Positions 1,358 through 15,808 of a DNA stretch of 38,841 nucleotides are shown here, piece by piece. The notes below the pieces were generated by a model that saw only the letters and a list, made by a program, of their open reading frames with translations, searched no databases and was not told the origin of the DNA. Within the stretch, counting starts at the first letter, position 1. The number at the start of each line of letters is the position of its first letter. The stretch lies in the IMG/VR virus record IMGVR_UViG_2541047816_000002, one strand, 5' to 3'. The translations under genes were made by a program, and so were the position numbers. This DNA comes from a virus (lineage: Duplodnaviria; Heunggongvirae; Uroviricota; Caudoviricetes).

Positions 1358-1421
1358 GAGCGTCGTTCGCTAATCATGGTCGCCGCCACTATAGCTGGTG
1401 GGCAACGACCGGGGTTGAACA

Positions 1422-3893: not shown

Positions 3894-3985
3894 TTTGTTT
3901 TACCTCATTACAGATTTAAGGGTGAACAAATCCCTGCCATTGCTGGCATATAAGAATGAAACCGGATATTTATTACGGAACTGTT

Positions 3986-4177
3986 TTAAAGACCTGCCGG
4001 GATTTCGTTATTGTCCATGTGAATAACTTTATCGACCGGATAACAGTTGCCGGGAATTTTCTGTTCCGCTGCGGCAGCCATGCATTCTTTCATTGAGTTG
4101 TACATGCCGGTGATTGCATCAAGCGACTCACCAGTATTGAGATGTACAGTCAGAATGAGTACGAATAATGTGTTCAT
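3986..4177 (-). CDS. Small protein with N-terminal hydrophobic (signal/TM-like) segment
   Basis: ATG at 4177 preceded by GGAGAG; MNTLFVLILTVHL... hydrophobic N-terminus; start overlaps stop of upstream ORF (ATGA). Confidence 0.5.
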   Translation of the reverse strand: MNTLFVLILTVHLNTGESLDAITGMYNSMKECMAAAAEQKIPGNCYPVDKVIHMDNNEIPAGL

Positions 4178-4362
4178 CGCCACTCTCCGAAAATACCGAG
4201 TTTAAGAAGGGCAATTCTGGAGAGTATGGAATTGTCATTCAGCAGGTAGGGTTCATATTTTCTCATTTTGATTGCATCCTCGGTGAAATCCCTGTTACTG
4301 AGCAGAACACCAATATTAAAGCACCCGTCAGACGTATTAACGTTTGGTAGTGACGTTTCCAT
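4174..4362 (-). CDS. Hypothetical small protein
   Basis: 62-aa ORF; GAGGA RBS 8 nt upstream of ATG at 4362; lies 10 nt downstream of the Rha-like gene stop. Confidence 0.5.
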   Translation of the reverse strand: METSLPNVNTSDGCFNIGVLLSNRDFTEDAIKMRKYEPYLLNDNSILSRIALLKLGIFGEWR

Positions 4363-4372
4363 TATCGCGTCC

Positions 4373-4930
4373 TCAACTATGAATTTTTAGCAATTGCTCC
4401 ACAGTCATATTTTTAATTGCGCTCCGGTTTACAAGAGTCCATCCTTGTTTCTCCAGATAAAACCGGAAGGTATCCAGGGTGCAGACCATTGCGCCGTCAG
4501 GAACGGTTTCAGTGAATTTGATATTGCCGTGTTCGTCGAGACGGATAACCAGGGTGCGTCCGTCCCCGTGAATCATTTTGTCGGGAGACGGGGCGTTATT
4601 CTGGCGCAGTTCAGCTTCCATGCGGTCGAACTCAGCAATGTATGCCTCTTTAAATGCAGCGGCTTTTTTGCCAGTGAAGCCCATCACCAGGAAAACGAAG
4701 CCGTTTTTGGTGATTTGGTACATTGGGAGTTTGCGCCCGGTTGAGTCGGTGTATTCGCTCGACACAAAATTGTGCTCAGTGAATTTTGCTGAACAGTCCA
4801 GATTGCGAATTTTATCCAACACTCGTTCGTGGCGTTTGCCAAAGAACTCGGCGATCGCAACAGACGTAGTGACAGCGCGACCATTTTCGATGGTTACGTC
4901 AGGGTGAGAAAGGGTAAGGATAGTAGCCAT
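4373..4930 (-). CDS. Phage regulatory protein, Rha family
   Basis: Start chosen at internal ATG (4930) with GGAGG 8 nt upstream; the longer track ORF (to 5227) would run through an intrinsic terminator; contains ...KLPMYQITKNGFVFLVMGFTGKKAAAFKEAYIAEF... Rha-like core. Confidence 0.72.
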   Translation of the reverse strand: MATILTLSHPDVTIENGRAVTTSVAIAEFFGKRHERVLDKIRNLDCSAKFTEHNFVSSEYTDSTGRKLPMYQITKNGFVFLVMGFTGKKAAAFKEAYIAEFDRMEAELRQNNAPSPDKMIHGDGRTLVIRLDEHGNIKFTETVPDGAMVCTLDTFRFYLEKQGWTLVNRSAIKNMTVEQLLKIHS

Positions 4931-5099
4931 GATGGCAGCCTCCGCGATGAATTTGATTAACTCACCACCGAGGTTTTCCACGACCATAAGGGTGGTGAGA
5001 CGTACAGGGGTGGAAATACCGGTCATCACGGAACCCGGCCAGCCTTGCGGCTGCCCTGCACGCCCCACCATAATGCGAATGTGGCTGTGCTTAACGCAT

Positions 5100-5122
5100 A
5101 AAAAAACCGCCTGAGCGCGGTT
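5100..5122 (-). terminator. Rho-independent terminator for leftward transcription
   Basis: Minus-strand hairpin AACCGC-loop-GCGGTT followed by a T7 run (an A run on the plus strand). Confidence 0.6.
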
Positions 5123-5799
5123 ATGCGCCGTGAATGATTTCGGGTTTCCACGCCCGGCACCCGTTTTATGAGGTGCAGGTGCACTATAATTCCACCCGTT
5201 CTGGTTTTCAATAGCTACATTCAACATTTTCTCTCACCTTTTCAGCGGAGTGAACTTTGTGATGCAGTGCCTGGTGCCTCCAGGTGACGTTAACCAGTTA
5301 ACAATTAACGCCGGATACAGAGAATCCACCCATAACACTGTTTTTGGTTTTAACTGTTCCGCGTGCGCTGAGCCGCATTCACCGCATCACAAAATTCACT
5401 TTAAAAAGGGCGGCAGAGCAGTCACGGAGTAAAACTGATACCGCCAAACGTCACCAGAAAATTGATAACAGAGGGCGTTGCAGCGGGGTTGTCACTTAAG
5501 CGTATGGTCAACCTGACAACCCGGTGTCCTCAACGGGGGAAGGAATAACCCCGCCATACTTACCGCCGCGCCATTTCGCGGATTGCCACAACCGGAAGCG
5601 CACGGTCGACGAAAATTTAACGACAGGCTATCTATGAACCAGCTACCTCGCCGTGCGCTTTCGCGTTATGGTCTGACTTTTCAGGGAAATATCCTTTCAG
5701 TAAACTGTCAGTGCCGGATTCTTATCCGTGTCCGGCGCACGACCACACGCTGTCACGAGAGGTCTCCATTCTCAACCAGTAACCTCAATGGAGGATAAA

Positions 5800-5994
5800 A
5801 TGTCAGAGCAGGAGTTAAAACTTGGTGCATGTTATTGTGTTCTCAAGGAGCTGGTACACATGCTTCCATCTACTCAGTATCAACAGTTAGTTGGCAATTT
5901 AAATCAGCGAATCGAAGCTATGTTAAAATCTGATGGTTTTAATAACGTAGAAACGCTGATGCTAAAAAGATATCTTGATGGATTAATCAGATAA
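5800..5994 (+). CDS. Hypothetical small protein (64 aa), rightward-oriented inside the leftward early region
   Basis: ATG at 5800 with GGAGG RBS (aatGGAGGataaaATG); 3' end overlaps the convergent minus-strand gene by 12 nt. Confidence 0.5.
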   Translation: MSEQELKLGACYCVLKELVHMLPSTQYQQLVGNLNQRIEAMLKSDGFNNVETLMLKRYLDGLIR

Positions 5995-6333
5995 CATTTT
6001 TTTACGGCGTTCATATTCGTTAATATTTATGAAGCCTGTTGCCAGAAGCAGTTCGTTAATTTCATGGTTGTTTGGCTGTTTCTGGCTCTTTGAACTGGGA
6101 TCTTCCACTTCTTTTTCTGCAAATTGTTTTGCTGTATCCTCTGTGCCATGGATATTTAAAGCTGTATCTGAAAACAGCCCAGTAAACGCATCGCGCACAT
6201 TACGAGCCATATTATCAGTGTCTTTTTTTGTTACCGATTCCAATTCAAGTTCGTTCAGACGATGACGAAGTGTGTGTGCTGCAATCTCCTGGATTGAAGG
6301 AGGTAAATCTTTAAATTCCATCGTCAACCTCAT
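5983..6333 (-). CDS. Hypothetical protein (116 aa; alternative start MEFKDL... at 6321)
   Basis: ATG overlaps stop of upstream gene (TGATG coupling); second ATG 4 codons in has GAGG RBS. Confidence 0.55.
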   Translation of the reverse strand: MRLTMEFKDLPPSIQEIAAHTLRHRLNELELESVTKKDTDNMARNVRDAFTGLFSDTALNIHGTEDTAKQFAEKEVEDPSSKSQKQPNNHEINELLLATGFININEYERRKKMLSD

Positions 6334-6485
6334 CAGTCAGTGTTTCTGGCTAACCAGCGACGCGCGCCAGCTGCGGTTTTAAACGTTTTGCTTTTGGTAT
6401 ACGTCATCGCGGTGAACGTACCGTCCTGGTTTGGGAACACACCACATACCAGAGATTCGCTGTTGCCAAGATCGATAGTATCCAT
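6333..6485 (-). CDS. Hypothetical small protein (50 aa), first gene downstream of the left operator region
   Basis: ATG at 6485 with GAGGT RBS; not Arg-rich, so not an N-like antiterminator. Confidence 0.45.
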   Translation of the reverse strand: MDTIDLGNSESLVCGVFPNQDGTFTAMTYTKSKTFKTAAGARRWLARNTD

Positions 6486-6671
6486 GCTGACCTCATTTCC
6501 CCTTAACGCCGGGGTAGCGGAACAAAAACCTGCTGCATAGTTATTAAAGTTGAACCCTGCCGTCATGTTCTTACGCCTCGGGCTGGCTACTTAACCCCTG
6601 ACCACTGCCTGGTAACTCGAAGTATTGCCCTGCATTCTGTGGGGCGGGGTGGGTTGGTATGAAAAGAAGGA

Positions 6672-6708
6672 TACCCATAGGTATTTAAAAAGTAAATACC
6701 CATGGGTA
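6672..6708. promoter_or_regulatory. Left operator-like region: two palindromic TACC-N4-GGTA sites (6672-6683, 6697-6708)
   Basis: tacccataggta and tacccatgggta (perfect palindrome) between repressor stop and the first leftward gene. Confidence 0.55.
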
Positions 6709-6750
6709 AATTTTTGCGGTGTCTTAACTGGTGACTAGTTGTTTGGTGAG

Positions 6751-7170
6751 CTATGATGCGTTTTGTGCTTTCTTTTTACGGATTTCTTCGTAGATCATAT
6801 TGTAATACTGTTTTTTCTCTTCAAGAGTTTTTAATAATTTATCCGCTTCACTTTCTGGCAGTTCGTCTAAGAGATCTAAAAAAATACGTTGTCGTGGCGT
6901 TAGAACCCTTGTTTCATAACTGGAGGCTGTGTTCGTTGATGATGAAACGATACCATCCATCCATCCCCGGGGTAACCCAAAGGACTCTTCGATAATCTCC
7001 ACCATATCATCAGCGATCCGTTTTTTTCCCTTTTTCCCCTCTGGGTACAACATTCTTGATACATAAGAAGGCTCGCGCCCGATCTTTCTGGCCACGTTAA
7101 CCGCTTTACCATCGCATTTCTCATCACGAATTTTGATGAGTTGCTGTCGTCTAAATTCATATTTGTCCAT
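6751..7170 (-). CDS. Prophage repressor, HTH protein without a LexA-like peptidase domain
   Basis: 139 aa; divergent from a Cro-like gene; CII/Cro-like HTH segment ...GKAVNVARKIGREPSYVSRML...; no Ser/Lys autocleavage module evident. Confidence 0.65.
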   Translation of the reverse strand: MDKYEFRRQQLIKIRDEKCDGKAVNVARKIGREPSYVSRMLYPEGKKGKKRIADDMVEIIEESFGLPRGWMDGIVSSSTNTASSYETRVLTPRQRIFLDLLDELPESEADKLLKTLEEKKQYYNMIYEEIRKKKAQNAS

Positions 7171-7190
7171 AGGTAAATAATAGATGCGAT

Positions 7191-7246
7191 TACCGCAAGG
7201 TAAACAACCTGTGGGTATTGACTTTTGTTTACCTGTGGGTATTCTT
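7191..7246. promoter_or_regulatory. Right operator/promoter region: three TACC-N4-GGTA-like sites (7191-7202, 7206-7217, 7230-7241) overlapping a rightward promoter (-35 TTGACT 7218-7223, -10 TATTCT 7240-7245)
   Basis: Repeated operator motif between divergent repressor and Cro-like genes; RBS AGGAG at 7261. Confidence 0.55.
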
Positions 7247-7270
7247 TGCTGTGTTTACTAAGGAGTAGCT

Positions 7271-7552
7271 ATGGAAGAATTAAGAATATTTCTCAATTCT
7301 CTTTCGTCAGATGAACAGCGTATGTTTGCATGCGAGTGTGGTACCAGCATCGGTTATCTAAGAAAGGCATTGAGTAAAGGTCAAGTGTTAGGGGCATCGT
7401 TATGTGTCCTTATTGAGCGAGCCAGTAATGGTGAAGTTACACGTCAGCAACTAAGGCCTTTTGATTGGATGAATATTTGGCCCGAGCTGGAAGATACCAA
7501 AACGTTAACACAACCACTTTCTAGGAGCTTGATTCATGAAAATCAAGCATGA
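7271..7552 (+). CDS. Cro-like / YdaS-like HTH regulator
   Basis: 93 aa; first rightward gene after the operators; AGGAG RBS. Confidence 0.6.
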   Translation: MEELRIFLNSLSSDEQRMFACECGTSIGYLRKALSKGQVLGASLCVLIERASNGEVTRQQLRPFDWMNIWPELEDTKTLTQPLSRSLIHENQA

Positions 7553-7961
7553 ACACATCCGCATGGCGATGAATGCCTGGGCGCGTCCTGATGGCGAAAA
7601 AGTTCCAGCAGCTGGAATAACCCAGGCTTATTTTGAGTTGGGTATGACGTTCCCAGAACTGTATGACGACAGCCATCCGGAAGCCCTGGCTCGCAATACC
7701 CAGAAAATTTTCCGCTGGGTAGAGAAAGACACCCCTGATGCTGTTGAAAAAATGCAGGCTCTGTTACCGGCGATCGAAAAGGCGATGCCGCCTTTGCTGG
7801 TGGCCCGTATGCGCAGCCACAGTTCTGAATATTACCGTGAGATCGTCGAACGGAGGGATCGGCTGGTGAAGGATGTCGATGATTTTGTTGCGTCAGCGGT
7901 TGTTTTGTATGACCAGATGAATCGCGGCGGCCCGGCAGGGAATGCTGTGGTGATGCACTAA
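7536..7961 (+). CDS. YdaT-like protein (CII-position regulator)
   Basis: 141 aa; overlaps Cro-like gene end; position and size match ydaT-type genes of Rac-like prophages (recalled). Confidence 0.5.
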   Translation: MKIKHEHIRMAMNAWARPDGEKVPAAGITQAYFELGMTFPELYDDSHPEALARNTQKIFRWVEKDTPDAVEKMQALLPAIEKAMPPLLVARMRSHSSEYYREIVERRDRLVKDVDDFVASAVVLYDQMNRGGPAGNAVVMH

Positions 7962-7983
7962 AAGCACGGTGTTCGGGGGTTTT

Positions 7984-8946
7984 ATGAGCAGCAAGCTTCA
8001 TGGTCTTGTCTGGGAAGGGTGCGCCTTCACCGGCATGATCTTATCCAGGGTGGCGGTTATGGCCCGTCTTGCAGACTACAGCAATGACGAGGGCGTGTCA
8101 TGGCCTGCCATTGAAACTATCCGGCGTCAGATCGGTGCAAGAAGTGAATCCACAGTGAAATCGGCTATTGCAGAACTGGCGAAAGAGGGCTGGCTGACGA
8201 AGGAAGAGCGTAAGGTCGGTGGGCGTAATGTAAGCAATATCTATCGGCTTAATGTGGAAAAACTCGAAGCAGCTGCGGCGGCGGCGCGTGAGTCATATAA
8301 ACCGAAAAGAAAAATTAGCCCGGCAAAAAATGACCCGTTAACAGTTGACCCGTCAAATATTGACCCCTCAACGGTTGACCCGTCAAATTTTGATGGATCA
8401 ACTGTTGATAAAAAACTGCCGATTAGGGGGGCGATGATTGACCCCGATCCGTCAGTATTAAAACCTGATCCGTCAGATAAAAGATCTTCTTGTCCGGACG
8501 CTTCGCAACCGGACCCGCAGACGGCTGAACAGGATTTTTTAACCCGACACCCTGACGCGGTTGTGTTCAGTGCGAAAAAACGCCAGTGGGGAAGTCAGGA
8601 AGATTTGGTGTGCGCACAGTGGATCTGGGGACGAATCGTGAGTCTTTACGAGCAGGCGGCCAGCTATGATGGCGAGATCACTAGACCGAAAGAACCCAAC
8701 TGGACAGCATGGGCCAATGACGTTCGCACAATGCGGATGCTGGATGGCAGAACTCACAGACAAATTTGTGAAATGTTTGGGCGTCTCCAGCGGGATTCGT
8801 TCTGGGTAAAAAACATCATGAGTCCGGCAAAACTCCGGGAAAAATGGGATGAACTGGTTATCCGCCTGGGGCGTTCGCCTGCGCAGCGTTGCGTGAATCA
8901 CATTTCTGAACCGGACACTGAAATACCGCCGGGATTCAGGGGGTGA
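7984..8946 (+). CDS. Replication initiator (lambda O-like function; HTH N-terminal domain), alternative GTG start at 7969
   Basis: N-terminal ...AIETIRRQIGARSESTVKSAIAELAKEGWL... replication-protein HTH; iterons inside the gene; followed by DnaC-like loader. Confidence 0.65.
   Translation: MSSKLHGLVWEGCAFTGMILSRVAVMARLADYSNDEGVSWPAIETIRRQIGARSESTVKSAIAELAKEGWLTKEERKVGGRNVSNIYRLNVEKLEAAAAAARESYKPKRKISPAKNDPLTVDPSNIDPSTVDPSNFDGSTVDKKLPIRGAMIDPDPSVLKPDPSDKRSSCPDASQPDPQTAEQDFLTRHPDAVVFSAKKRQWGSQEDLVCAQWIWGRIVSLYEQAASYDGEITRPKEPNWTAWANDVRTMRMLDGRTHRQICEMFGRLQRDSFWVKNIMSPAKLREKWDELVIRLGRSPAQRCVNHISEPDTEIPPGFRG
8330..8404. repeat. Putative replication origin iterons: five ~15-bp direct repeats (TTGACCCGTCAA-like) inside the initiator gene
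   Basis: atgacccgttaacag / ttgacccgtcaaata / ttgacccctcaacgg / ttgacccgtcaaatt / ttgatggatcaactg at 15-bp period; related GATCCGTCAG copies at 8443-8476. Confidence 0.6.
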
Positions 8947-8952
8947 CGTGTC

Positions 8953-9699
8953 ATGAAAAACATTGCGGCAGTTGGGGTTCTTGAACGTATTCGCAGACTT
9001 GCACCACAGGGGTCGGTTCCACCGTACCGGACGGTGGAGGAGTGGCGGGAATGGCAACTTGCTGAAGGACGAAAACGCAGCGAGGAGATTAACCGCCAGA
9101 ATCGCCAGTTGCGGGTGGAAAAAATCCTGAATCGTTCGGGCATCCAGCCTCTGCACAGCAAATGCTCGTTTGCAAATTATCAGGTGCAGAACGACGGGCA
9201 AAAATACGCGCTGAGCCAGGCCAAATCCATAGCTGACGAACTGATGACCGGGTGCACGAATTTTGTGTTCAGCGGTAAAACCGGCACCGGGAAAAATCAC
9301 CTTGCAGCGGCGATGGGCAACCGGCTGATGGTGAAGGGGCGCAGCGTGATTATCGTCACCGTGTCTGACGTCATGAGCGTGTTGCATGACAGCTACGACA
9401 ACGGCAAATCCGGGGAAAAATTTTTACAGGAGCTTTGCGGGGTTGATTTGCTGGTCCTGGATGAAATAGGCGTTCAGCGGGAGACGAAAAACGAGCAGGT
9501 GGTATTGCACCAGATAATTGATCGCCGGACAGCATCACTGTGCAGTGTCGGGATGTTAACAAACCTGAATCATGCCGCAATGAGTACGCTTCTTGGTGAG
9601 AGGATTATGGACCGCATGACCATGAACGGTGGTCGATGGGTGACGTTTAACTGGGATAGCTGGCGTCCAAATGTCAGCAATATGAGGGTTGTGAAGTAA
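8953..9699 (+). CDS. DnaC-like helicase loader (IstB-like AAA+ ATPase)
   Basis: Walker A GKTGTGKNHLA, Walker B LLVLDEIG; directly downstream of initiator. Confidence 0.85.
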   Translation: MKNIAAVGVLERIRRLAPQGSVPPYRTVEEWREWQLAEGRKRSEEINRQNRQLRVEKILNRSGIQPLHSKCSFANYQVQNDGQKYALSQAKSIADELMTGCTNFVFSGKTGTGKNHLAAAMGNRLMVKGRSVIIVTVSDVMSVLHDSYDNGKSGEKFLQELCGVDLLVLDEIGVQRETKNEQVVLHQIIDRRTASLCSVGMLTNLNHAAMSTLLGERIMDRMTMNGGRWVTFNWDSWRPNVSNMRVVK

Positions 9700-9720
9700 T
9701 TTTGTCCGGAGGAAATTTTA

Positions 9721-10491
9721 ATGGAAACCGTATCTGACGCACTGAAAGCACTGAAAAAAGCCTCTTCACATGTGGTGGCAGCTCGCCTTGGAATCAGTCG
9801 TGAAGAGGCTGTCAACGAGCTGTGGGAACTCAAAAGAAAAGGCGTCGTTGATAAAACTGGTCACACCTGGTTTCTGGCTGGCGAAGGTGAATCCCGGGTA
9901 ACCGAAGAGCGGCCAGTAAAATCTGAAGCACAGGATATGCTGACCGGGGAGGTCGAACAAAAAGTTACCGCAGACATGATGATTGAGTTTATCGGTCAGG
10001 ATGGGGCTAAAACGTGTGAGGAACTGGCGGGTAAGTTCGGTGTCAGTACTCGCAAGGTTGCTTCCACGCTGGCGGTGGTAACCGCAACGGGGCGGCTGGC
10101 ACGCGTTAATCAGAACGGTAAATTTCGTTACTGCATGCCGGGCGATAATTTACCAGCAGAGCCGAAAGCCGCGCTGGTAACGGAAAGTGATGGTAAGGCC
10201 TTTCCTCAGCCAGCAGGTGCTGCGTTACCAGTCCGGGAAGCCGCAACACAGGAAGAAATTAAAACAGAAACTGTGGCGGACATTGTGCAGCCGTTGCCAT
10301 CGTTTACCGAAACGCAAGCAGATGAGCTGATTTTTCCGTCCCTTCGCAGGGCAAACCTGGCGCTGCGCAGGGCGAAAAGTGATGTTCAGAAGTGGGAGCG
10401 AGTCTGCGCCGCGCTGCGGGAGCTGAACAAGCACCGGGATATTGTTCGACAGATTACTGATTCTTCCCGCCGTGTTGTATCGGAAAAGTGA
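9721..10491 (+). CDS. Hypothetical protein with two winged-helix-like segments
   Basis: 256 aa; GGAGG RBS; two HTH-like stretches (ARLGISREEAVNELWELKRKG; AGKFGVSTRKVASTLAVV). Confidence 0.55.
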   Translation: METVSDALKALKKASSHVVAARLGISREEAVNELWELKRKGVVDKTGHTWFLAGEGESRVTEERPVKSEAQDMLTGEVEQKVTADMMIEFIGQDGAKTCEELAGKFGVSTRKVASTLAVVTATGRLARVNQNGKFRYCMPGDNLPAEPKAALVTESDGKAFPQPAGAALPVREAATQEEIKTETVADIVQPLPSFTETQADELIFPSLRRANLALRRAKSDVQKWERVCAALRELNKHRDIVRQITDSSRRVVSEK

Positions 10492-10506
10492 TTGCCGGAG
10501 GCGCTT

Positions 10507-10932
10507 ATGGCAAAAGTATTTACACAAGAAGAGCGGGAAAAAATTAAAGGGCAGGTTGTTGAACTTGTACGTCTGAGCGGTCGCGAGACGTTGCGGCAAC
10601 TGGAAGCCAAGACAGGTGCGACAAGATATCTGATGAGTGTTCTCGCCAGAGAGCTGGTTGCCAGTGGCGATGTATACAACTCTGGTTACGGGTTATTCCC
10701 GTCTGAACAGGCGCGTAAGGACTGGCAAAATGCTCGCAAAAAACTCTCAAGGGCAAAGGTGAAGAAACCTGCAGTGGTTGATCCGGACCTTATCTGGTCG
10801 TTACCAGACGGCGAAATACGCCGCTACGACAGGCGCCTGAATATAATCTGTCGCGAGTGCCGGAAGAGCGAAGCTATGCAGCGTGTACTGGCATTTTATC
10901 AAGGAAATGTTAGGTATTTTAGACGTTACTAG
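10507..10932 (+). CDS. Hypothetical protein (141 aa)
   Basis: ATG at 10507 with GGAG RBS; track start at 10492 is TTG. Confidence 0.5.
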   Translation: MAKVFTQEEREKIKGQVVELVRLSGRETLRQLEAKTGATRYLMSVLARELVASGDVYNSGYGLFPSEQARKDWQNARKKLSRAKVKKPAVVDPDLIWSLPDGEIRRYDRRLNIICRECRKSEAMQRVLAFYQGNVRYFRRY

Positions 10933-11085
10933 ATTAAAGAGCATTAGTTCAGATGTGAATTGACATTTTCATGGCGCAGGGTAGAGCCAGCGTGGTTGTC
11001 CGCTTTGCGTCAAAACCAGATATTACCAGATTTAGACATATATTCCCGATAGCCCTGCTCTGATGCTACACTCTGTGCTATTTTC

Positions 11086-11772
11086 ATGACCCCAATAAAA
11101 ATATTTATGACTATTGCTGATTTCAAACGGCCTAAATTGGAGCTCCCAAACGGGGCAAACAAACTACTACTGCACTCTTGCTGTGCTCCATGTTCCGGTG
11201 AAGTGATGGAGGCGCTTCAGGCCTCGGGAATCGACTACACCATCTTTTTCTACAACCCGAACATTCATCCTCAGAAAGAGTATTTAATTCGTAAGGATGA
11301 AAATATTCGCTTTGCTGAACAACACGGCGTGCCGTTTATCGATGCTGATTACGACACCGACAACTGGTTTGAACGTGCCAAAGGAATGGAATGGGAGCCT
11401 GAGAGGGGGATCCGTTGTACCATGTGTTTTGACATGCGTTTTGAGCGGACAGCGTTGTACGCTGCTGAAAATGGTTTCAGTGTGATCAGCAGTTCACTGG
11501 GCATTTCACGCTGGAAAAATATGCAGCAGGTTAACGAGTGTGGGCGGCGAGCTGTTGCGCATTATCCGGGTATGGTGTACTGGGATTATAACTGGCGCAA
11601 GCAGGGCGGCTCGTCCCGTATGATTGAAATCAGCAAGCGCGAAAAATTCTATCAGCAGGAATATTGTGGCTGTGTGTATTCTCTGCGCGATACCAATCTA
11701 CACCGCAAATCTCAGGGACGCCCTCTTATCAAAATTGGCCAACTCCACTACGGAAAAGAAGAGAAGGAGTGA
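11086..11772 (+). CDS. DUF208 / QueH-like protein (epoxyqueuosine reductase family)
   Basis: 228 aa with ...[11 protein letters not shown]... Cys cluster characteristic of QueH/DUF208, plus further conserved Cys (CTMCF, CGC). Confidence 0.6.
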
Positions 11773-12009
11773 TTTTATGGATCACCTTTCTGATTGATTT
11801 CATATTGGCGAGGTGACGTGAGTTAAGTAGAATGGCTGCGGGTGCTTGAGGCTATCTGTCTCAGGCATGAACACTGAAAGGCAGATAGAGAAAAGCCCCA
11901 GTTAACATTTCGCGTCCTGCAAGACGCTTAACATTAATCTGAGGCCCAATCTATGTCTCACAAATGTAGGTTAGCCTCTTACGTGCCGAAAGGCAAGGGG
12001 AAGCAGGCT

Positions 12010-12165
12010 ATGAAGCAGCAAAAGGCGATGTTAATCGCCCTGATCGTCATCTGTTTAACCGTCATAGTGACGGCACTGGTAACGAGGAAAGACCTCTGCG
12101 AGGTACGAATCCGAACCGGCCAGACGGAGGTCGCTGTCTTCACAGCTTACGAACCTGAGGAGTAA
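12010..12165 (+). CDS. hok: Hok/Gef-family type I toxin (small membrane peptide)
   Basis: MKQQKAMLIALIVICLTVIVTALVTRKDLCEVRIRTGQTEVAVFTAYEPEE matches recalled HokD/RelF; intrinsic terminator follows. Confidence 0.85.
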   Translation: MKQQKAMLIALIVICLTVIVTALVTRKDLCEVRIRTGQTEVAVFTAYEPEE

Positions 12166-12235
12166 GAGACCCGGCGAGGGAGAAATCCCTCGCCACCTCT
12201 GATGTGGCAGGTATCCTCAACGCACCCGCACTTAA

Positions 12236-12260
12236 CCCGCTTCGGCGGGTTTTTGTTTTT
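12236..12260 (+). terminator. Rho-independent terminator after hok
   Basis: cccgc-ttcg-gcggg hairpin followed by TTTTTGTTTTT. Confidence 0.7.
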
Positions 12261-12381
12261 ATTTTCAACGCATTTGAAGTTCTGGACGGTGCCGGAATAG
12301 AATCAAAAATACTTAAGTAGCGCGCAGGGATAAGAGGGATGGTCCCTTAAAGGGGAGAGCTAATTATCCGGAAGGATTCTG

Positions 12382-12633
12382 ATGATGAACATCGAAGAAC
12401 TGCGTAAAATTTTTTGTGAAGATGGCCTCTATGCTGTGTGCGTTGAAAATGGAAATATTGTTAGTCATTACCGCATTGTGTGTTTGCAAAAAAATGGGGC
12501 TGCGTTAATTAATTTTGTGGATGCCCGAGTGACGGACGGATTTATCTTGCGCGACGGTGAGTTTGTCACTTCATTACAGGTATTGAAAGAGATCGGAATA
12601 AAAGCTGGCTTTTCTGCTTTTTCAGAAGAATAA
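12382..12633 (+). CDS. Rem-like small prophage protein
   Basis: 83 aa MMNIEELRKIFCEDGLYAV...; resembles recalled Qin-prophage Rem; GGAAGG RBS. Confidence 0.55.
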   Translation: MMNIEELRKIFCEDGLYAVCVENGNIVSHYRIVCLQKNGAALINFVDARVTDGFILRDGEFVTSLQVLKEIGIKAGFSAFSEE

Positions 12634-12699
12634 ACTCATCTACAATCTTGCGCGGGGCTGAACTCCCGCTGAGTAACACCGTGCCACCGGAGAAAACCG

Positions 12700-12978
12700 A
12701 TGGCACGCAACGCAAAATATTACAAACATGATAATTCGACCGTTCTTGCCCACACGCACGAGCGGTATTCTCACGCATTTAAGTCAGACTGGTACCAGCA
12801 TCCCCCATGCACTGAAGAACAGGCCGAATGGCTAATTCATAACTACCGCAGACGCGGATACGAGATTAAGAAAGCCCTCAGCCTCGATTATCGTCACTGG
12901 ATAATCTCCGTCAGGCTTCCTTACTCCGAACGCCCACCGCGTCTGTCCCGCACATTCCAGCAACGCATCTGGAGGTAA
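12700..12978 (+). CDS. Hypothetical protein (92 aa)
   Basis: GGAG RBS; ORF ends 2 nt before next gene. Confidence 0.5.
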   Translation: MARNAKYYKHDNSTVLAHTHERYSHAFKSDWYQHPPCTEEQAEWLIHNYRRRGYEIKKALSLDYRHWIISVRLPYSERPPRLSRTFQQRIWR

Positions 12979-12979
12979 C

Positions 12980-14035
12980 GTGCGGGTATTACTTCGACCT
13001 GTTCTGGTACCGGAACTCGGGCTGGTGATCGTTAAGCCGGGCAGTGAATCCATGCCGGTATTCCACAATACCCGGGTACTGGTGGAGCCGGAACCGAAAA
13101 CCATGCGTAATCTGCCGTCCGGGGTCGTTCCTGCCGTTCGCCAGCCGCTGGCGGAGGATAAATCATTACTGCCATTTTTCAGCGACGAACGAGTGATTCG
13201 TGCTGCTGGTGGCGCTGGCGCATTGTCTGACTGGTTACTGCGCCATGTTAAATCCTGCCAGTGGCCACACGGCGATTATCACCACAGTGAAACCGTCATT
13301 CACCGTTATGGTACCGGCGCAATGGTGTTGTGCTGGCACTGCGACAACCAGCTGCGCGACCAGACCTCCGAATCACTCGGGCAACTTGCTCACCAAAACC
13401 TGTTTGCATGGATGATTGACGTCATACGCCATGCAATGAATGGCTCGCAGGAACGGGAATTATCGCTGGCTGAATTATCCTGGTGGGCGGTCCGCAATCA
13501 GGTGGCGGACGCGCTACCGGAAGCGGTATTACGTCGTTCGCTGGGGTTGCGTGCGGAAAAAATCCGCTCAATGTACCGTGAAAGCGACATCGTACCGGGA
13601 GAGCAGACCGCCACCAGCATACTGAAGCAGCGCACAAAAAATCTTGCGCCGCTGCCTCACGCCCACCAGCAAAACCCGCCACAGGAAAAGACGGTGGTCA
13701 GCATTGCCGTTGATCCGGAGTCACCGGCTCAGTATCTCCAGCGCCAGAAATCACAACGGGAAGAGATGCCTGTATACACGCGTTGGGTAAAAACGCAGAA
13801 ATGCATGACGTGTGGCAATCAGGCAGATGATCCGCATCACATCATTGGTCATGGACTGGGAGGGATGGGAACAAAGGCTGATGATTTGTTTGTTATTCCG
13901 CTGTGCCGTAAATGCCATAGCGAACTACACGCCGGGGTAGAAGATTTTGAAGAAAAACACGGCAGCCAGCTGTTGTTGCTGATTCGTTTTTTAATGCACG
14001 CGAGAAATTCGGGTGTTTTGAAGTGGAAAGCATAA
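12980..14035 (+). CDS. DUF968-like prophage protein with C-terminal Cys/His (HNH-like) motif
   Basis: GTG start with GGAGG RBS; C-terminal ...CMTCGNQADDPHHIIGHG...IPLCRKCHSELH... Confidence 0.6.
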   Translation: MRVLLRPVLVPELGLVIVKPGSESMPVFHNTRVLVEPEPKTMRNLPSGVVPAVRQPLAEDKSLLPFFSDERVIRAAGGAGALSDWLLRHVKSCQWPHGDYHHSETVIHRYGTGAMVLCWHCDNQLRDQTSESLGQLAHQNLFAWMIDVIRHAMNGSQERELSLAELSWWAVRNQVADALPEAVLRRSLGLRAEKIRSMYRESDIVPGEQTATSILKQRTKNLAPLPHAHQQNPPQEKTVVSIAVDPESPAQYLQRQKSQREEMPVYTRWVKTQKCMTCGNQADDPHHIIGHGLGGMGTKADDLFVIPLCRKCHSELHAGVEDFEEKHGSQLLLLIRFLMHARNSGVLKWKA

Positions 14036-14416
14036 ATGACTGAACGCATAGAATTTGTTTTGCCTTACCCGCCAACGGTGAACACTTACTGGCGACGCCG
14101 TGGCAGCACATATTTTGTATCAAAAGCCGGGGAGCGTTATCGCCGGGCAGTGGCGCTTATTGTTCGCCAGCAGCGGCTGAAATTAAGCCTGTCCGGAAGG
14201 TTGGCAATAAAAATTATTGCAGAACCACCGGATAAGCGCCGCCGTGACCCGGACAATATTCTGAAAGCGCCGCTGGATGCGCTGACGCATGCGGGGTTGC
14301 TAATGGACGATGAGCAGTTTGATGAAATCAATATCGTTCGTGGTCAGCCAGTATCTGGTGGACGTCTGGGGGTGAAGATTTACCCCATAATGCTTGAAGG
14401 GCAGGTCAAAAAATGA
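14036..14416 (+). CDS. rusA: Holliday junction resolvase RusA
   Basis: 126 aa; ...DPDNILKAPLDALTHAGLLMDDEQ... matches RusA catalytic region (recalled E. coli RusA). Confidence 0.88.
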   Translation: MTERIEFVLPYPPTVNTYWRRRGSTYFVSKAGERYRRAVALIVRQQRLKLSLSGRLAIKIIAEPPDKRRRDPDNILKAPLDALTHAGLLMDDEQFDEINIVRGQPVSGGRLGVKIYPIMLEGQVKK

Positions 14417-15234
14417 AACTGGAAGATTTACCGAAATACTACTCCCCAAAATCCCCCGGCCTGACCGATGCGTCCGCCTCGACATCAAAAGATGCGCTGA
14501 GTATCACTGATGTGATGGCCGCGCAGGGCATGACACAAAATCGGGCTGAGATGGGTTTTTCTGCGTTCCTTGGGAAAATGGGCATTAGTATGAATGACAG
14601 AGAGCGGGCAACAGAATTGCTGACAGAATATGCACTCAGTCGGTGTGATCGCGTGGCGGCGTTAAGAAAACTCCCGGCAGAAATAAAACCGGTAGTGATG
14701 CGCATTATGGCTTCGTACGCTTTTGAGGATTATGCCCGCAGCGCAGCGAGTAAAAAGCAGTGCCCTTGTTGCTATGGGGAAAAATTTATTGAAAGCGTAG
14801 TTTTTACAAACAAGGTCCAGTATCCGGATGGTAAGCCGCCGGTATGGGCAAAGTGTACGAAAGGTGTGTATCCGTCTTACTGGGAAGAATGGAAAAAAGT
14901 CAGGGAGGTGGTAAAAGTTGCCTGTCCGGAGTGTGGCGGAAAGGGTGAGGTTTCCACCGCCTGTAAGGATTGCCGTGGGCGTGGTGTCGCCATTCATCGT
15001 GAAGAGTCGGTAAAACGTGGTATGCCTGTTATCAGAGACTGCCAGCGTTGTGGTGGTCGTGGCTGTGAAAGACTACCATCAACGGAGGCATTTAATGCCA
15101 TACGCAAAGTGACGAGTGCTATCACGCTTGATACGTGGAAAAAATCAGTGAAACGCTTTTACGATACGTTGGTGGTTCGGTTTGACATTGAAGAGGCATG
15201 GGCGGAGCGGCAGTTAAAGAGGGTAACGCGATAG
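14413..15234 (+). CDS. Late antiterminator Q (zinc-finger type)
   Basis: 273 aa; three CxxCxGxG repeats (CPECGGKG, CKDCRGRG, CQRCGGRG); lies immediately upstream of a lambda-like pR'/qut. Confidence 0.7.
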   Translation: MKLEDLPKYYSPKSPGLTDASASTSKDALSITDVMAAQGMTQNRAEMGFSAFLGKMGISMNDRERATELLTEYALSRCDRVAALRKLPAEIKPVVMRIMASYAFEDYARSAASKKQCPCCYGEKFIESVVFTNKVQYPDGKPPVWAKCTKGVYPSYWEEWKKVREVVKVACPECGGKGEVSTACKDCRGRGVAIHREESVKRGMPVIRDCQRCGGRGCERLPSTEAFNAIRKVTSAITLDTWKKSVKRFYDTLVVRFDIEEAWAERQLKRVTR

Positions 15235-15239
15235 TGTTG

Positions 15240-15300
15240 TTGATTTTTCCCGAATCTGTGGTAAATTTGCTCTAACGATGGGCGTTTTATGCCTGACGTT
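15240..15300 (+). promoter_or_regulatory. Late promoter pR' with qut-like element (-35 TTGATT 15240-15245, -10 TAAATT 15262-15267, pause-inducing AACGAT downstream)
   Basis: TAAATTTGCTCTAACGATGGG closely matches recalled lambda pR' TAAATTTGACTCAACGATGGG. Confidence 0.65.
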
Positions 15301-15316
15301 AGAAGATTTTTTACAC

Positions 15317-15338
15317 CCCGCCGCCTGGCGGGTTTTTT
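15317..15338 (+). terminator. tR'-like intrinsic terminator ~45-60 nt downstream of the pR' start
   Basis: cccgcc-gcct-ggcggg hairpin followed by T6. Confidence 0.65.
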
Positions 15339-15460
15339 ATGACTGAAATCGCGTCAGTACAGTAAACGCGCTGGTGGCGGTGAATACCTGTCTTTCAGCT
15401 TGCTGGCTTTTTCGACAAGAGTTATTGGTGTGTCACGTTAACCGGAAAAGGGAAAAAGAC

Positions 15461-15658
15461 ATGCTAAAACAGCAGGATATGACAGAAACCGCCAGAGTAG
15501 TGTTTAATGAATTAAGAGTTACCGAACCGGCGACAGTCGGGGAGATAGCGCAGAATACTTACCTTTCACGCGAACGCTGCCAGTTAATACTGACCCAGCT
15601 GGTTATGGCGGGTCTGGCAGACTATCAGTTCGGTTGTTACAGACGCCTTCCGCAGTGA
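15461..15658 (+). CDS. Hypothetical small protein (65 aa, possibly winged-helix)
   Basis: ATG at 15461 after A/G-rich RBS; stop codon lies inside a terminator hairpin. Confidence 0.45.
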   Translation: MLKQQDMTETARVVFNELRVTEPATVGEIAQNTYLSRERCQLILTQLVMAGLADYQFGCYRRLPQ

Positions 15659-15668
15659 AGGCTTTTTT
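15645..15668 (+). terminator. Rho-independent terminator
   Basis: gccttc-cgcagt-gaaggc hairpin followed by T6. Confidence 0.55.
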
Positions 15669-15808
15669 ATTTGTGGTAAATGGGCGGCTGGTGGGTGTTA
15701 GGGGCACCCACCAGCCATCTGCTCATGCGTTGGGTTCACAAGCAAACCTCAGGCCCACTGCTTTGCGCAAAAGCAGAATGAGCCTATCAGAGACAGGCTT
15801 AATGATCC

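What the first reader, a model, noticed from the sequence alone, without database searches (positions are those of the whole stretch)
8330..8476. Iteron-type origin embedded in the replication initiator gene
Five direct repeats at 15-bp period (8330-8404) are encoded within the initiator ORF and produce the peptide repeat DPLTVDPSNIDPSTVDPSNFDGSTVD. Further related GATCCGTCAG copies lie at 8443-8476. This parallels the lambda origin, which lies inside gene O, with the initiator binding iterons in its own coding sequence.
Basis: partly seen in the sequence, partly recalled or inferred. Interest (0 to 1): 0.42.

Follow-up and report, generated by a model that had tools for sequence, protein, structure and literature searches.

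The report
Lambda-type replication origin inside initiator gene
The repeats are real and are almost certainly the binding sites and origin of replication of an E. coli lambda-like prophage, lying inside its own initiator gene as in phage lambda; this is a sound but unsurprising example of a well-known design.

Summary
Window 8330-8401 holds five 12-bp near-palindromic units (TTGACCCSTCAA) exactly 15 bp apart, four forward and one inverted. Two GATCCGTCAG copies follow at 8446-8455 and 8467-8476. All lie in the part of the initiator gene (7984-8946) that encodes a predicted disordered linker.

- In relatives the same 12-mer occurs in both orientations, encoding D-P-S or E-G-S.
- Serine codons in the linker are strongly biased to TCA.
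- The repeat type follows the N-terminal winged-helix domain, not the exchangeable C-terminal domain.
- The C-terminal domain is homologous to those of lambda O and phi80 gp15 (36-39% identity).
- The repeats sit at the same relative position as the annotated lambda and phi80 iterons, followed by an alignable, moderately AT-rich stretch.

It differs from lambda in four ways: an HTH_36 DNA-binding domain, a tight 15-bp phasing with mixed orientation, conserved GATC sites in the AT-rich part, and a DnaC-like loader. It is not Rac oriJ. I rate it a new member of a known kind, of modest interest. RefSeq annotates neither the origin nor the initiator function.

The parts
7218..7245 (+). pR-like promoter match upstream of the cro-like gene. 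The initiator gene lies about 740 bp downstream in the same rightward operon.
   Evidence: Consensus scan only: TTGACT-16-TATTCT. This is a consensus match, not proof of a promoter.
7984..8946 (+). Replication initiator gene (320 aa). RefSeq calls it 'helix-turn-helix domain-containing protein'.
   Evidence: Best PHROG match is phrog_391 'replication initiation O-like', E 2e-115. Pfam HTH_36 matches aa 25-71. The ATG at 7984 matches the start of homologues.
7984..8295 (+). Coding region of the N-terminal winged helix-turn-helix domain (aa 1-104), the presumed iteron-binding domain.
   Evidence: The AlphaFold2 model has helices plus a beta-hairpin wing at 71-89, pLDDT about 76-88. Foldseek returns only MarR/PadR/ArsR-type winged-helix DNA binders, all weak (E >= 0.007).
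8289..8329 (.). A-rich stretch of low duplex stability on the left flank of the array.
   Evidence: The least stable 30-bp segment of the gene is 8289-8318, z = +2.46 against the whole window. AT is 65.9% against 48.5% overall.
8330..8341 (.). Unit 1, ATGACCCGTTAA: forward, degenerate (2 mismatches to TTGACCCSTCAA).
8345..8356 (.). Unit 2, TTGACCCGTCAA: forward, perfect. It is a 12-bp palindrome except for the central CC.
8360..8371 (.). Unit 3, TTGACCCCTCAA: forward, perfect.
8375..8386 (.). Unit 4, TTGACCCGTCAA: forward, perfect.
8390..8401 (.). Unit 5, TTGATGGATCAA: inverted orientation (GG centre), 2 mismatches.
   Evidence: The equivalent inverted units in relatives are TTGAGGGGTCAA.
8423..8445 (.). 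Degenerate remnant of the subfamily palindrome: TTAGGGGGGCGA-TGA-TTGACCCC. Relatives have TTAAGGGGTCAA-TGG-TTGACCCC directly before the first GATCC.
   Evidence: Family alignment on the first GATCC and unit table. The correspondence is by my inspection.
8446..8455 (.). GATCCGTCAG copy 1. It carries a GATC (Dam) site and a core related to the units (GAYCCNTCA).
   Evidence: All 52 non-identical family genes examined have at least one GATCC in the linker.
8467..8476 (.). GATCCGTCAG copy 2, 21 bp after copy 1.
8446..8492 (.). Conserved GATC-containing, moderately AT-rich core. It is the candidate DNA-unwinding region and the positional equivalent of the lambda AT-rich tract.
   Evidence: AT is 61.7% against 48.5% overall, and 77.8% outside the two 10-mers. 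A low-stability segment lies at 8456-8485, z = 2.17. The core is conserved across the subfamilies, and in Gilliamella relatives the stretch after GATCC is 90% AT. The right edge AAAAGATCTTCTTGTCCGG aligns with lambda AAAAGATTATTCGTCAGAG and phi80 AAAAGATCTTCGTCCGAG.
8479..8500 (.). Mosaic joint where the N-terminal-domain-plus-repeat module meets exchangeable C-terminal modules.
   Evidence: HannyBb similarity (86% nt) starts at window 8479. Other C-termini follow '...SSCPD' in L022 and L076 and in phiNP. The lambda record marks misc_recomb at the equivalent place, 39157/39165.
8515..8874 (+). Coding region of the C-terminal helical domain (aa 178-297), homologous to the C-terminal domains of lambda O and phi80 gp15.
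   Evidence: BLASTP gives 39% identity over 119 aa to lambda O (E 5e-26) and 36% over 124 aa to phi80 gp15 (E 5e-26). AlphaFold2 pLDDT is about 72-88 for most of the domain, lower at its ends.
8881..8943 (+). C-terminal tail (aa 300-320, ...VNHISEPDTEIPPGFRG), near-identical to the C-terminus of E. coli DnaT. Possible recruitment peptide for the helicase/loader.
   Evidence: PDB sequence search matches 2ru8, 6aep and 9zbt DnaT, E 0.01-0.03. NCBIfam DnaT model, E 0.004. Rac YdaU has the same tail. The tail is disordered in the model.
8953..9699 (+). DnaC/IstB-like AAA+ helicase loader gene.
   Evidence: Pfam IstB_IS21, E 7e-19. NCBIfam PRK12377, E 1e-152, and DnaC, E 2e-89. PHROG 'DnaC-like helicase loader'.

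Best explanation
What it is. This is the replication origin of a lambdoid E. coli prophage, built on the lambda plan and lying inside the initiator gene.

How it is laid out. The initiator has three parts: an N-terminal winged-helix DNA-binding domain, a disordered linker, and a lambda-O-type C-terminal domain. The DNA that encodes the linker doubles as the origin. It holds five 12-bp near-palindromic sites (TTGACCCSTCAA) at 15-bp phasing (8330-8401), a degenerate palindrome, and two related GATCCGTCAG sites. These last two sit in a moderately AT-rich, GATC-containing core (8446-8492).

Inferred mechanism:
1. Dimers of the initiator's N-terminal domain occupy the sites and form an O-some-like complex.
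2. That complex strains and opens the adjacent low-stability core.
3. The C-terminal domain and the DnaT-like tail bring in host DnaB with the phage DnaC-like loader.
4. Rightward transcription from the pR-like promoter runs through the origin, as in lambda.

Shown here: the repeats, their DNA-level constraint, their co-inheritance with the N-terminal domain, and the homology and positional equivalence to the lambda and phi80 origins.

Inferred, not shown: binding, melting site, helicase loading, and any role of Dam/SeqA.
For: 1. The repeats are real and clustered.

2. The constraint is on DNA.
- In 11 genes of the closest subfamily the 12-mer occurs 33 times forward (encoding D/N-P-S/P/L) and 24 times inverted (encoding E/D/K-G-S/L), in runs at 15-bp spacing (sequences).
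- In the SfIV-type subfamily the middle codon of D-X-S varies widely (P, A, G, V, T and others), while T-GAY...R-TCA is kept.
- Ser codons are TCA in 371 of 758 linker serines against 148 of 944 elsewhere (Fisher p 3e-50), in 51 of 52 genes. In the window the figures are 7 of 10 against 1 of 17.
- TGAYNNRTCA occurs at 8.9 per kb in linkers against 0.09 per kb in the rest of the loci.

3. The repeat type tracks the N-terminal clade and not the C-terminal type.
- TTGA-SSSN-TCAA goes with window-like N-termini.
- CTGAYNNRTCA goes with SfIV-like N-termini.
- CCAGAWTCTGG palindromes go with L128-like N-termini.
- HannyBb has the window's C-terminal half (86% nt) but another N-terminus and unrelated 23-bp repeats.
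- 115 of 120 arrays found by pattern in viral contigs lie directly downstream of the cognate N-terminal domain. Three more are inverted arrays in homologues of about 70% identity.
- A distant AT-rich phage contig (L145) shares little beyond the HTH_36 helix-turn-helix stretch, yet has perfect 15-bp-spaced ATTGAGGGGTCAAAT units.

4. Link to validated origins.
- The C-terminal domain is 39% identical to lambda O and 36% to phi80 gp15.
- The GenBank records annotate iterons inside those genes at aa 117-145 of 299 and aa 122-147 of 302. The window sites are at aa 116-165 of 320.
- The sequence at the right edge of the AT-rich part is alignable.
- Literature: ori-lambda is four 18-bp iterons plus a 38-bp AT-rich tract within O (PMC3349717, PMC7466680).

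5. The AlphaFold2 model puts aa 109-177 in a disordered linker (pLDDT below 50) between two folded domains.

6. The array has the same strong self-complementarity as the lambda and phi80 iteron arrays (z -5.3 against -5.6 and -3.7).

7. Context is a complete-looking lambdoid prophage with a DnaC-like loader next door.
Against: - No experiment on binding or replication for this initiator family was found in the papers I could search.
- The AT-rich part is only moderately AT-rich (61.7% against 78% in lambda) and is interrupted by the two GATCCGTCAG copies. The melting site is therefore uncertain. Two other low-stability stretches flank the array.
- The N-terminal domain is not the lambda O type (Pfam HTH_36, not Phage_rep_O), so binding is inferred from co-variation only.
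- The integrase is annotated as frameshifted in an identical copy, so the prophage may be partly defective.
- Phylogenetic non-independence inflates the codon statistics.
Confidence: 0.8

Rival explanations
1. The repeats bind the initiator, but their main role is regulatory: autoregulation, titration or handcuffing-type copy control, or exclusion of related phages. On this reading initiation takes place elsewhere in the prophage.
For: Iterons in plasmids and in lambda also act in control and exclusion; the ITN-dependent inhibition phenotype is described in PMC3349717. The AT-rich part here is weak. No origin mapping exists for this family.
Against: The position and flanks match the lambda and phi80 origins, including the alignable right edge. 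The AT-rich stretch downstream of the sites is conserved and becomes 90% AT in Gilliamella relatives. No other comparable repeat cluster was found in the window.
Confidence: 0.1
2. This is a peptide repeat. The linker is a low-complexity D-P-S-rich tether that expanded by replication slippage, and the DNA repeats have no function of their own.
For: The region encodes a predicted disordered linker. Unit-length insertions and deletions occur among E. coli copies: 15 bp in L039 and 21 bp in L058.
Against: The same 12-mer occurs in inverted orientation, encoding E-G-S instead of D-P-S. The middle residue varies freely while flanking bases and the TCA codon are fixed. Each unit has dyad symmetry. 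The repeat type follows the DNA-binding domain.
Confidence: 0.03
3. The sites are bound by another protein, not by the initiator. Candidates are the YdaT-like/CII-position protein, the DUF1627 protein or a host factor.
For: No binding data exist. The GATCC... core is conserved across subfamilies whose first-cluster repeats differ, so that part could serve a common host factor such as Dam/SeqA.
Against: SfIV, 689R6, phiNP and HannyBb lack the YdaT-like, DnaC-like and DUF1627 neighbours but keep the N-terminal domain with its repeats. Only the N-terminal domain co-occurs consistently with the repeat type.
Confidence: 0.05

Closest known systems
Phage lambda O protein and ori-lambda (four 18-bp iterons plus a 38-bp AT-rich tract inside gene O)
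   Same: - The origin lies inside the initiator gene, in the stretch between the N- and C-terminal domains (aa 117-145 of 299 in lambda, aa 116-165 of 320 here).
- The sites are dyad-symmetric, and the array is as self-complementary.
- An AT-richer stretch follows downstream, with an alignable right edge.
- The C-terminal domain is homologous, 39% identity.
- The gene lies in the rightward early operon after cro and cII-position genes.
   Different: - The N-terminal domain is Pfam HTH_36, not Phage_rep_O.
- Sites are 12 bp at 15-bp phasing rather than 18 bp at about 20-24 bp.
- Orientation is mixed.
- The AT-rich part is weaker and carries conserved GATC sites.
- The loader is DnaC/IstB-like, not lambda P.
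- There is a DnaT-like C-terminal tail instead of the ...TDWIYGVDL end of O.
Phage phi80 gp15 and its origin (four gp15 binding sites annotated inside gene 15, GenBank JX871397)
   Same: - The C-terminal domain is 36% identical.
- Iterons are at the same relative position.
- The sequence after the sites...AGTATTAAAAGATCTTCGTCCG, closely resembles window ...AGTATTAAAACC...ATAAAAGATCTTCTTGTCCGG.
   Different: - phi80 has a Phage_rep_O N-terminus, unrelated iterons at 20-21-bp spacing, and a lambda-P-like loader (gp14).
- It has no DnaT-like tail.
SfIV / SfII / phiNP / YeP1-type 'replication protein O' or 'primosomal protein I' genes of enterobacterial temperate phages
   Same: - Same initiator family: N-terminal domain 62-66% identical.
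- Same architecture: four 15-bp-spaced units with core TGACCCGTCA, in the same reading frame, followed by the GATCCGTCAG / AT-rich core.
   Different: - The flanks of the units differ (TCTGAC...TCAAAA against TTGAC...TCAA).
- These phages have an extra CCGTCAGAATCTGGCGG palindrome.
- Most lack an adjacent DnaC-like gene.
- No origin is annotated in those records either.
Rac prophage replication module (ydaS-ydaT-ydaU-ydaV-ydaW; oriJ)
   Same: - Same gene order, with YdaS-like, YdaT-like, initiator, DnaC-like and DUF1627 genes.
- Same C-terminal ...IPPGFRG tail on the initiator.
   Different: - YdaU is a DUF1376 protein with no other similarity.
- ydaU holds no comparable repeat array.
- So this is not oriJ.
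Iteron-containing plasmid origins (RepA, pi, RepE, TrfA)
   Same: Both have repeated binding sites for a winged-helix initiator next to an AT-rich region, and helicase loading through host DnaB with a DnaC-type loader.
   Different: - The plasmid origin lies outside the rep gene.
- Plasmid iterons are about 17-22 bp direct repeats bound by monomers (my knowledge).
- The initiator here gives no Rep_3-type Pfam match.
- Sites here are near-palindromes in both orientations.

Membership tests
Lambda-type (lambdoid O / ori) replication module | The origin repeats lie inside the initiator gene, in the segment between the DNA-binding domain and the C-terminal domain. | tested here: met
   The sites are at aa 116-165, within the predicted disordered linker aa 109-177. 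This is the same relative position as the iterons annotated in lambda and phi80.
Lambda-type (lambdoid O / ori) replication module | Four or more repeated sites with internal dyad symmetry. | tested here: met
   There are five 12-bp near-palindromes plus two related 10-mers. Self-complementarity is z -5.3, against -5.6 for the lambda array.
Lambda-type (lambdoid O / ori) replication module | An AT-rich tract directly downstream of the iterons. | tested here: inconclusive
   8446-8492 is 61.7% AT against 48.5% overall, whereas the lambda tract is 78%. It is conserved and alignable at its right edge, and is 90% AT in Gilliamella relatives.
Lambda-type (lambdoid O / ori) replication module | C-terminal domain homologous to that of lambda O. 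| tested here: met
   39% identity over 119 aa, E 5e-26. phi80 gp15 gives 36%, E 5e-26.
Lambda-type (lambdoid O / ori) replication module | N-terminal domain of the Phage_rep_O family (PF04492). | tested here: not met
   Pfam gives HTH_36 (E 2e-6) and a weak DnaD_N match, with no Phage_rep_O match. phi80 gp15 does match PF04492.
Lambda-type (lambdoid O / ori) replication module | A lambda-P-type helicase loader encoded next to the initiator. | tested here: not met
   The neighbour is a DnaC/IstB-like AAA+ protein.
Lambda-type (lambdoid O / ori) replication module | The repeat specificity is inherited together with the N-terminal domain and independently of the C-terminal domain. | tested here: met
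   The repeat type follows the N-terminal clade across 52 genes, and both C-terminal types occur with two of the repeat types. HannyBb is the converse case.
Lambda-type (lambdoid O / ori) replication module | The initiator binds the repeats, and the fragment supports initiator-dependent replication. | not testable with these tools
   This needs EMSA or footprinting and a replication assay. No such data were found for this family.
Rac prophage oriJ / YdaU module | Initiator homologous to YdaU (DUF1376). | tested here: not met
   Only the last 19 residues are similar. YdaU matches DUF1376, and there is no comparable repeat array in ydaU.
Iteron plasmid origins (Rep_3 / RepA-type) | A Rep protein of the Rep_3 / two-winged-helix type, with direct repeats outside the gene in one orientation. 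| tested here: not met
   No Rep_3 Pfam match. The repeats are inside the gene and in both orientations.
Iteron plasmid origins (Rep_3 / RepA-type) | DnaA boxes next to the iterons. | tested here: inconclusive
   Two one-mismatch matches, at 8253 and 8403 on the minus strand, fall in the 1.7 kb scanned. About 0.4 would be expected by chance, my estimate.

The most novel reading that the evidence does not exclude
The origin architecture of this widespread HTH_36 initiator family may be a distinct variant of the lambda plan. It would have two parts. The first is a set of tightly packed 12-bp dimer sites at 15-bp phasing (about 1.4 helical turns) in either orientation, which can swap between subfamilies. 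The second is an invariant GATC-bearing AT-rich core, which would serve as the melting and helicase-loading site under Dam/SeqA control. Its right edge (AAAAGATCTTC...) would be shared with lambda and phi80 and would serve as the joint for exchanging C-terminal and loader modules. The DnaT-like tail would be the peptide that recruits DnaC-DnaB, which could also bear on how DnaT itself recruits DnaB/DnaC.
Probability: 0.3. Interest if true: 0.5.

Novelty: new member of a known kind. Interest (0 to 1): 0.33.

Why it matters
- Annotation. An origin and an initiator can now be assigned to a prophage module that is common in E. coli. 1,208 of 5,426 complete genomes hold a match to at least 80% of the 2.5-kb replication region. 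RefSeq labels the gene only 'helix-turn-helix domain-containing protein'.
- Method. It is a clean natural example of DNA sites written into a coding sequence. The same 12-mer read in either orientation gives D-P-S or E-G-S in a disordered linker. This is useful for teaching and for benchmarking methods that separate DNA-level from protein-level constraint.
- Experiments. It offers a second, sequence-unrelated DNA-binding domain on the lambda O chassis for studying how initiator-origin specificity is exchanged. It also offers a compact candidate origin for lambda-dv-like vectors.
- It does not change the picture of how lambdoid phages replicate.

Tried and rejected
- Rac oriJ. I suspected equivalence from the ydaS/ydaT-like neighbours and rejected it. 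K-12 YdaU is a DUF1376 protein that shares only the C-terminal tail.
- First viral-contig scan with the N-terminal domain. It returned only near-identical E. coli copies. These were useful for indel variants but not for divergence.
- Promoter reading of the TTGAC motifs. There is no sigma-70-like match in or near the array.
- Known RNA. Rfam gave nothing above threshold. The only match was a 21-bit miRNA-hairpin hit caused by the palindromic array.
- A hairpin or cruciform as the primary feature. The window array folds strongly (z -5.3 as DNA, -7.1 as RNA). The validated lambda and phi80 iteron arrays do so too, and the fold pattern is not conserved among relatives, so it is a by-product of dyad-symmetric sites.
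- DnaA boxes. Two one-mismatch matches are not clearly above chance.
- GATC clustering in the window alone. Four sites in about 90 bp make the densest 100 bp in the window, which I do not judge significant on its own. Only the conservation across the family is informative.
- PDB sequence search. It found only the DnaT-like tail.
- Foldseek. It gave only generic winged-helix matches with weak E-values, so no specific structural relative can be claimed.
- Literature. No paper describing the origin of this initiator family was found. The key review (Weigel & Seitz 2006) is not held, so prior description cannot be excluded.
Full report
**1. Observation**

Tandem Repeats Finder reports an array at 8319-8408 with period 15 (5 copies) and, scoring better, period 30 (3 copies, 80-84% matches). 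The repeat finder gives the 15-bp spacing and a second pair, CCCGATCCGTCAG 8443-8455 and CCTGATCCGTCAG 8464-8476, 21 bp apart.

Read in register, the units are 12-mers at 8330, 8345, 8360, 8375 and 8390:
- ATGACCCGTTAA
- TTGACCCGTCAA
- TTGACCCCTCAA
- TTGACCCGTCAA
- TTGATGGATCAA

TTGACCCGTCAA is a palindrome except for its central CC. The fifth unit has a GG centre, so it is the inverted orientation.

The clustering is far beyond chance.
- Three perfect TTGACCCSTCAA matches occur in 38.8 kb against about 0.009 expected from uniform base frequencies, my calculation. All three are in the array, and only one other match with up to 2 mismatches exists in the window.
- For the 10-bp core, 5 of the 6 matches with up to 1 mismatch in the window lie in 8331-8475.

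**2. Context**

The window is a lambdoid prophage next to a tRNA-Ser gene and mtfA, and 100%-identical copies of the 2.5-kb replication region occur in E. coli chromosomes. The gene order is:
- repressor-like gene (6751-7170, minus strand)
- divergent promoter-like sites (7177-7245)
- YdaS-like cro-position gene
- YdaT-like gene
- the initiator
- a DnaC/IstB-like AAA+ gene (8953-9699)
- DUF1627, DUF977 and QueH genes, HokD, RusA and Q
- four tRNA genes, lysis genes, a P27-type terminase, an HK97-type head and a lambda-type tail

RefSeq calls the initiator only 'helix-turn-helix domain-containing protein'. PHROGs places it in phrog_391, 'replication initiation O-like' (E 2e-115).

**3. Is the repeat a DNA element or a peptide repeat?**

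Four independent lines point to DNA.

(a) Orientation. In 11 genes of the closest subfamily (Erwinia, Edwardsiella, Mixta, Morganella, Klebsiella phage Kp4866-6 and others) the 12-mer occurs 33 times forward and 24 times inverted. Forward units such as ATTGACCCCTCAA encode I-D-P-S. Inverted units such as GTTGAGGGGTCAA are the exact reverse complement and encode V-E-G-S. Units in a run are 15 bp apart, with 3 to 10 units per gene. A peptide or RNA repeat would not be kept as its reverse complement.

(b) Middle codon. In the SfIV-type subfamily the middle codon of D-X-S is P, A, G, V, T and others, while the flanking T-GAY...R-TCA is kept.

(c) Codon choice. In 52 non-identical family genes, serine is TCA in 371 of 758 linker codons against 148 of 944 elsewhere (Fisher p 3e-50). 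The bias holds in 51 of 52 genes. In the window it is 7 of 10 against 1 of 17. Relatedness inflates the p-value, but the per-gene consistency stands.

(d) Density. TGAYNNRTCA occurs at 8.9 per kb in the linkers against 0.09 per kb in the remaining roughly 3 kb of each locus.

**4. Whose sites are they?**

The repeat type follows the N-terminal domain, not the rest of the protein.
- N-termini at least 69% identical to the window's (plus L126, at 60%) carry TTGA-SSSN-TCAA units.
- SfIV-like N-termini carry CTGAYNNRTCA units (TCTGACCCGTCAAAA in SfIV, 689R6 and phiNP; TGACGGGTCA in YeP1).
- L128-like N-termini (about 50% identical) carry 17-bp CCTCCAGAATCTGGAGG palindromes at 30-33 bp.

Two C-terminal types, the lambda-O-like domain and Phg_2220_C, are spread across two of the repeat types (the window-like and the SfIV-like).

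The converse case is phage HannyBb. Its C-terminal half is 86% identical in DNA to the window from 8479 onward. Its N-terminus is unrelated, and it has five different 23-bp repeats.

Among 80 IMG/VR copies with an identical N-terminus, the repeat region is nearly invariant. Exceptions are unit-length deletions (15 bp in L039, 21 bp in L058) and a third kind of C-terminus joined after '...SSCPD' (L022, L076).

A pattern scan for two adjacent units in viral contigs found 120 stretches.
- 115 lie directly downstream of the cognate N-terminal domain.
- 3 are inverted arrays in homologues of about 70% identity.
- 1 starts 23 bases from the end of its contig.

The last one, L145, is an AT-rich metagenomic phage. 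Its 433-aa HTH_36 protein is similar to the window protein only in the helix-turn-helix stretch (38% over 39 aa). Yet it carries perfect 15-bp-spaced ATTGAGGGGTCAAAT units (the NIEGS repeat).

Neighbouring genes do not track the repeats. SfIV, 689R6, phiNP and HannyBb lack the YdaT-like, DnaC-like and DUF1627 genes.

**5. Link to validated origins**

The initiator's C-terminal domain (aa about 182-300) is homologous to those of lambda O (39% identity, E 5e-26) and phi80 gp15 (36%, E 5e-26).

The GenBank records annotate the iterons inside those genes. In lambda they are at 39034-39118, aa 117-145 of 299. In phi80 they are the gp15 sites at aa 122-147 of 302. The window sites are at aa 116-165 of 320.

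Downstream of the sites the three sequences can be aligned:
- lambda: ...AAAAGATTATTCGTCAGAG
- phi80: ...AGTATTAAAAGATCTTCGTCCGAG
- window: ...AGTATTAAAACC[TGATCCGTCAG]ATAAAAGATCTTCTTGTCCGG

This spot is where the lambda record marks recombination joints (39157/39165). It is also where the mosaic joint lies in the window (about 8479-8500).

From the literature, ori-lambda is four 18-bp iterons joined to a 38-bp AT-rich tract within gene O (PMC3349717). [quoted passage not shown]

**6. Protein architecture**

The AlphaFold2 model has mean pLDDT 66.9. It shows:
- a winged helix-turn-helix domain at aa 1-104
- a disordered segment at aa 109-177 (pLDDT below 50)
- a helical domain at aa 178-297
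- a disordered tail

The whole repeat region encodes the disordered segment, which explains why the protein tolerates DNA-dictated sequence.

Foldseek finds only MarR/PadR/ArsR-type winged-helix DNA binders, and weakly (E >= 0.007). To my knowledge these families typically bind palindromic sites as dimers, which fits the dyad symmetry of the units.

**7. The second cluster**

Aligned on the first GATCC, all 52 genes share a core. It consists of a subfamily-specific palindrome, then GATCC(G/A)TCAG, about 11-14 AT-rich bases, a second GATCC(R)TCAG, then ATAAAA(GATCT).
- In the window subfamily the palindrome is TTAAGGGGTCAA-TGG-TTGACCCC. The window's copy, 8423-8445, is degenerate.
- In Gilliamella relatives the stretch after GATCC is 90% AT over 40 bp.
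- In the window, 8446-8492 is 61.7% AT against 48.5% overall, and 77.8% outside the two 10-mers.
- Low-stability 30-mers lie at 8289-8318, 8385-8414 and 8456-8485 (z 2.2-2.5).

I take 8446-8492 as the most likely unwinding region, by position and conservation, but this is inference.

The Asp codon here is GAT in most of the genes, which creates GATC, whereas in the first cluster it is mostly GAC. This hints at Dam/SeqA involvement, untested. Four GATC sites in 8396-8486 are the densest 100 bp of the window, which I do not judge significant on its own.

**8. Mechanism proposed**

1. Dimers of the N-terminal domain fill the 12-bp sites. At 15-bp spacing, neighbours sit about 1.4 turns apart, so alternate dimers face the same side. 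This fits the stronger 30-bp period.
2. The complex distorts the DNA and opens the neighbouring low-stability core.
3. The C-terminal domain and tail recruit DnaB with the DnaC-like loader.
4. Transcription from the pR-like promoter passes through.

Steps 1-4 are inferred from the lambda model. The anatomy, the DNA-level constraint, the co-inheritance and the homology are shown here.

**9. Rivals**

- Pure peptide repeat: contradicted.
- Sites for another protein: neighbours are not conserved with the repeats.
- Control sites rather than origin: not excluded, but the positional homology to ori-lambda and ori-phi80 argues against it.
- Hairpin or cruciform: the array folds strongly (z -5.3 as DNA), but so do the lambda (-5.6) and phi80 (-3.7) iteron arrays. 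The fold differs among relatives.
- No promoter or Rfam family explains it.

**10. Comparison and novelty**

It works like, and is half-homologous to, the lambda O / ori module. It fails two membership features: the N-terminal domain is not the Phage_rep_O type, and the loader is not the P type. It is therefore best described as a lambda-O-type chassis with a different DNA-binding domain, matching sites, and a DnaC-type loader.

It is not Rac oriJ. K-12 YdaU is a DUF1376 protein that shares only the ...IPPGFRG tail.

I found no paper describing the origin of this family. The main review of phage replication modules is not in the library, so earlier mention cannot be excluded.

The principle, with the origin in the initiator gene and specificity carried by the N-terminal domain, is long established, so a specialist would not be surprised.

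The modest new points are:
- the tight 15-bp phasing with both orientations
- the conserved GATC-bearing core
- the DnaT-like tail
- the missing annotation in hundreds of E. coli genomes

**Verdict**

It is a new member of a known kind. Confidence in the origin reading is 0.8, and interest is about 0.33.

Noticed in passing
window 8881-8943 (last 21 codons of the initiator): The tail ...VNHISEPDTEIPPGFRG is almost identical to the C-terminus of E. coli DnaT (RDVNTVSEPDSQIPPGFRG; PDB 2ru8, 6aep, 9zbt). It also occurs on the unrelated Rac YdaU. All five family loci with a DnaC-like gene downstream have an IP(P/E)GF motif, although many tail-bearing phages have no dnaC-like gene of their own. Genes with W-rich tails like that of phi80 gp15 lack a DnaC-like neighbour. 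The tail may be a DnaC/DnaB recruitment peptide.
   Followed up: partly
plasmid record NZ_CP148542.1 (L265), 1-15977: A 16-kb circular 'plasmid' from an E. coli assembly consists only of the immunity, replication, Q and lysis segment of such a prophage. This module is 99.6% identical in it. It is either a lambda-dv-like autonomous replicon or an assembly artefact of in-situ over-replication.
   Followed up: partly
L039 and L058 (IMG/VR copies of the same gene): Natural variants lack exactly one 15-bp unit (L039, peptide LTVDP) or one 21-bp unit of the second cluster (L058, peptide SVLKPDP). So site number varies among otherwise identical E. coli prophages.
   Followed up: no
window 8944-8953: TGACGTGTCA (TGACACGTCA on the other strand) matches the repeat core with one mismatch. 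It spans the initiator stop codon and the start of the DnaC-like gene. It may be chance.
   Followed up: no
L145:859-2160 and 1255-1470 (IMGVR_UViG_3300026302_000094): An AT-rich metagenomic phage has a 433-aa HTH_36 protein. Its linker carries perfect ATTGAGGGGTCAAAT units and further GGGGTCAA copies, followed by a stretch of about 90 bp at 76% AT (contig average 71%). The same 12-mer is therefore used far outside Enterobacterales.
   Followed up: partly
window 15578-15887: A cluster of four tRNA genes (Ile, Lys, Thr, Gly) lies downstream of the Q antiterminator gene, as annotated in an identical RefSeq copy.
   Followed up: no
window 11106-11771 and 12008-12163: The prophage carries a QueH (epoxyqueuosine reductase) gene and a hokD toxin gene between the replication and Q regions.
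   Followed up: no
window 1016-2066 and 9721-10490: In the identical RefSeq copy the integrase and the DUF1627 gene are flagged as frameshifted, although 9721-10491 reads as an intact 256-aa ORF here. The prophage may be defective for excision.
   Followed up: no
window 2280-2355: A 21-bp tandem repeat (3.6 copies, 72% matches) lies at the junction of the DUF4224 gene and the large exonuclease gene.
   Followed up: no
L002, L003, L085 (phages 689R6, phiNP, YeP1): In these relatives a DNA adenine methyltransferase gene lies close downstream of the initiator gene, directly after it in phiNP and one gene further on in 689R6 and YeP1. The origin core of the family has conserved GATC sites.
   Followed up: no
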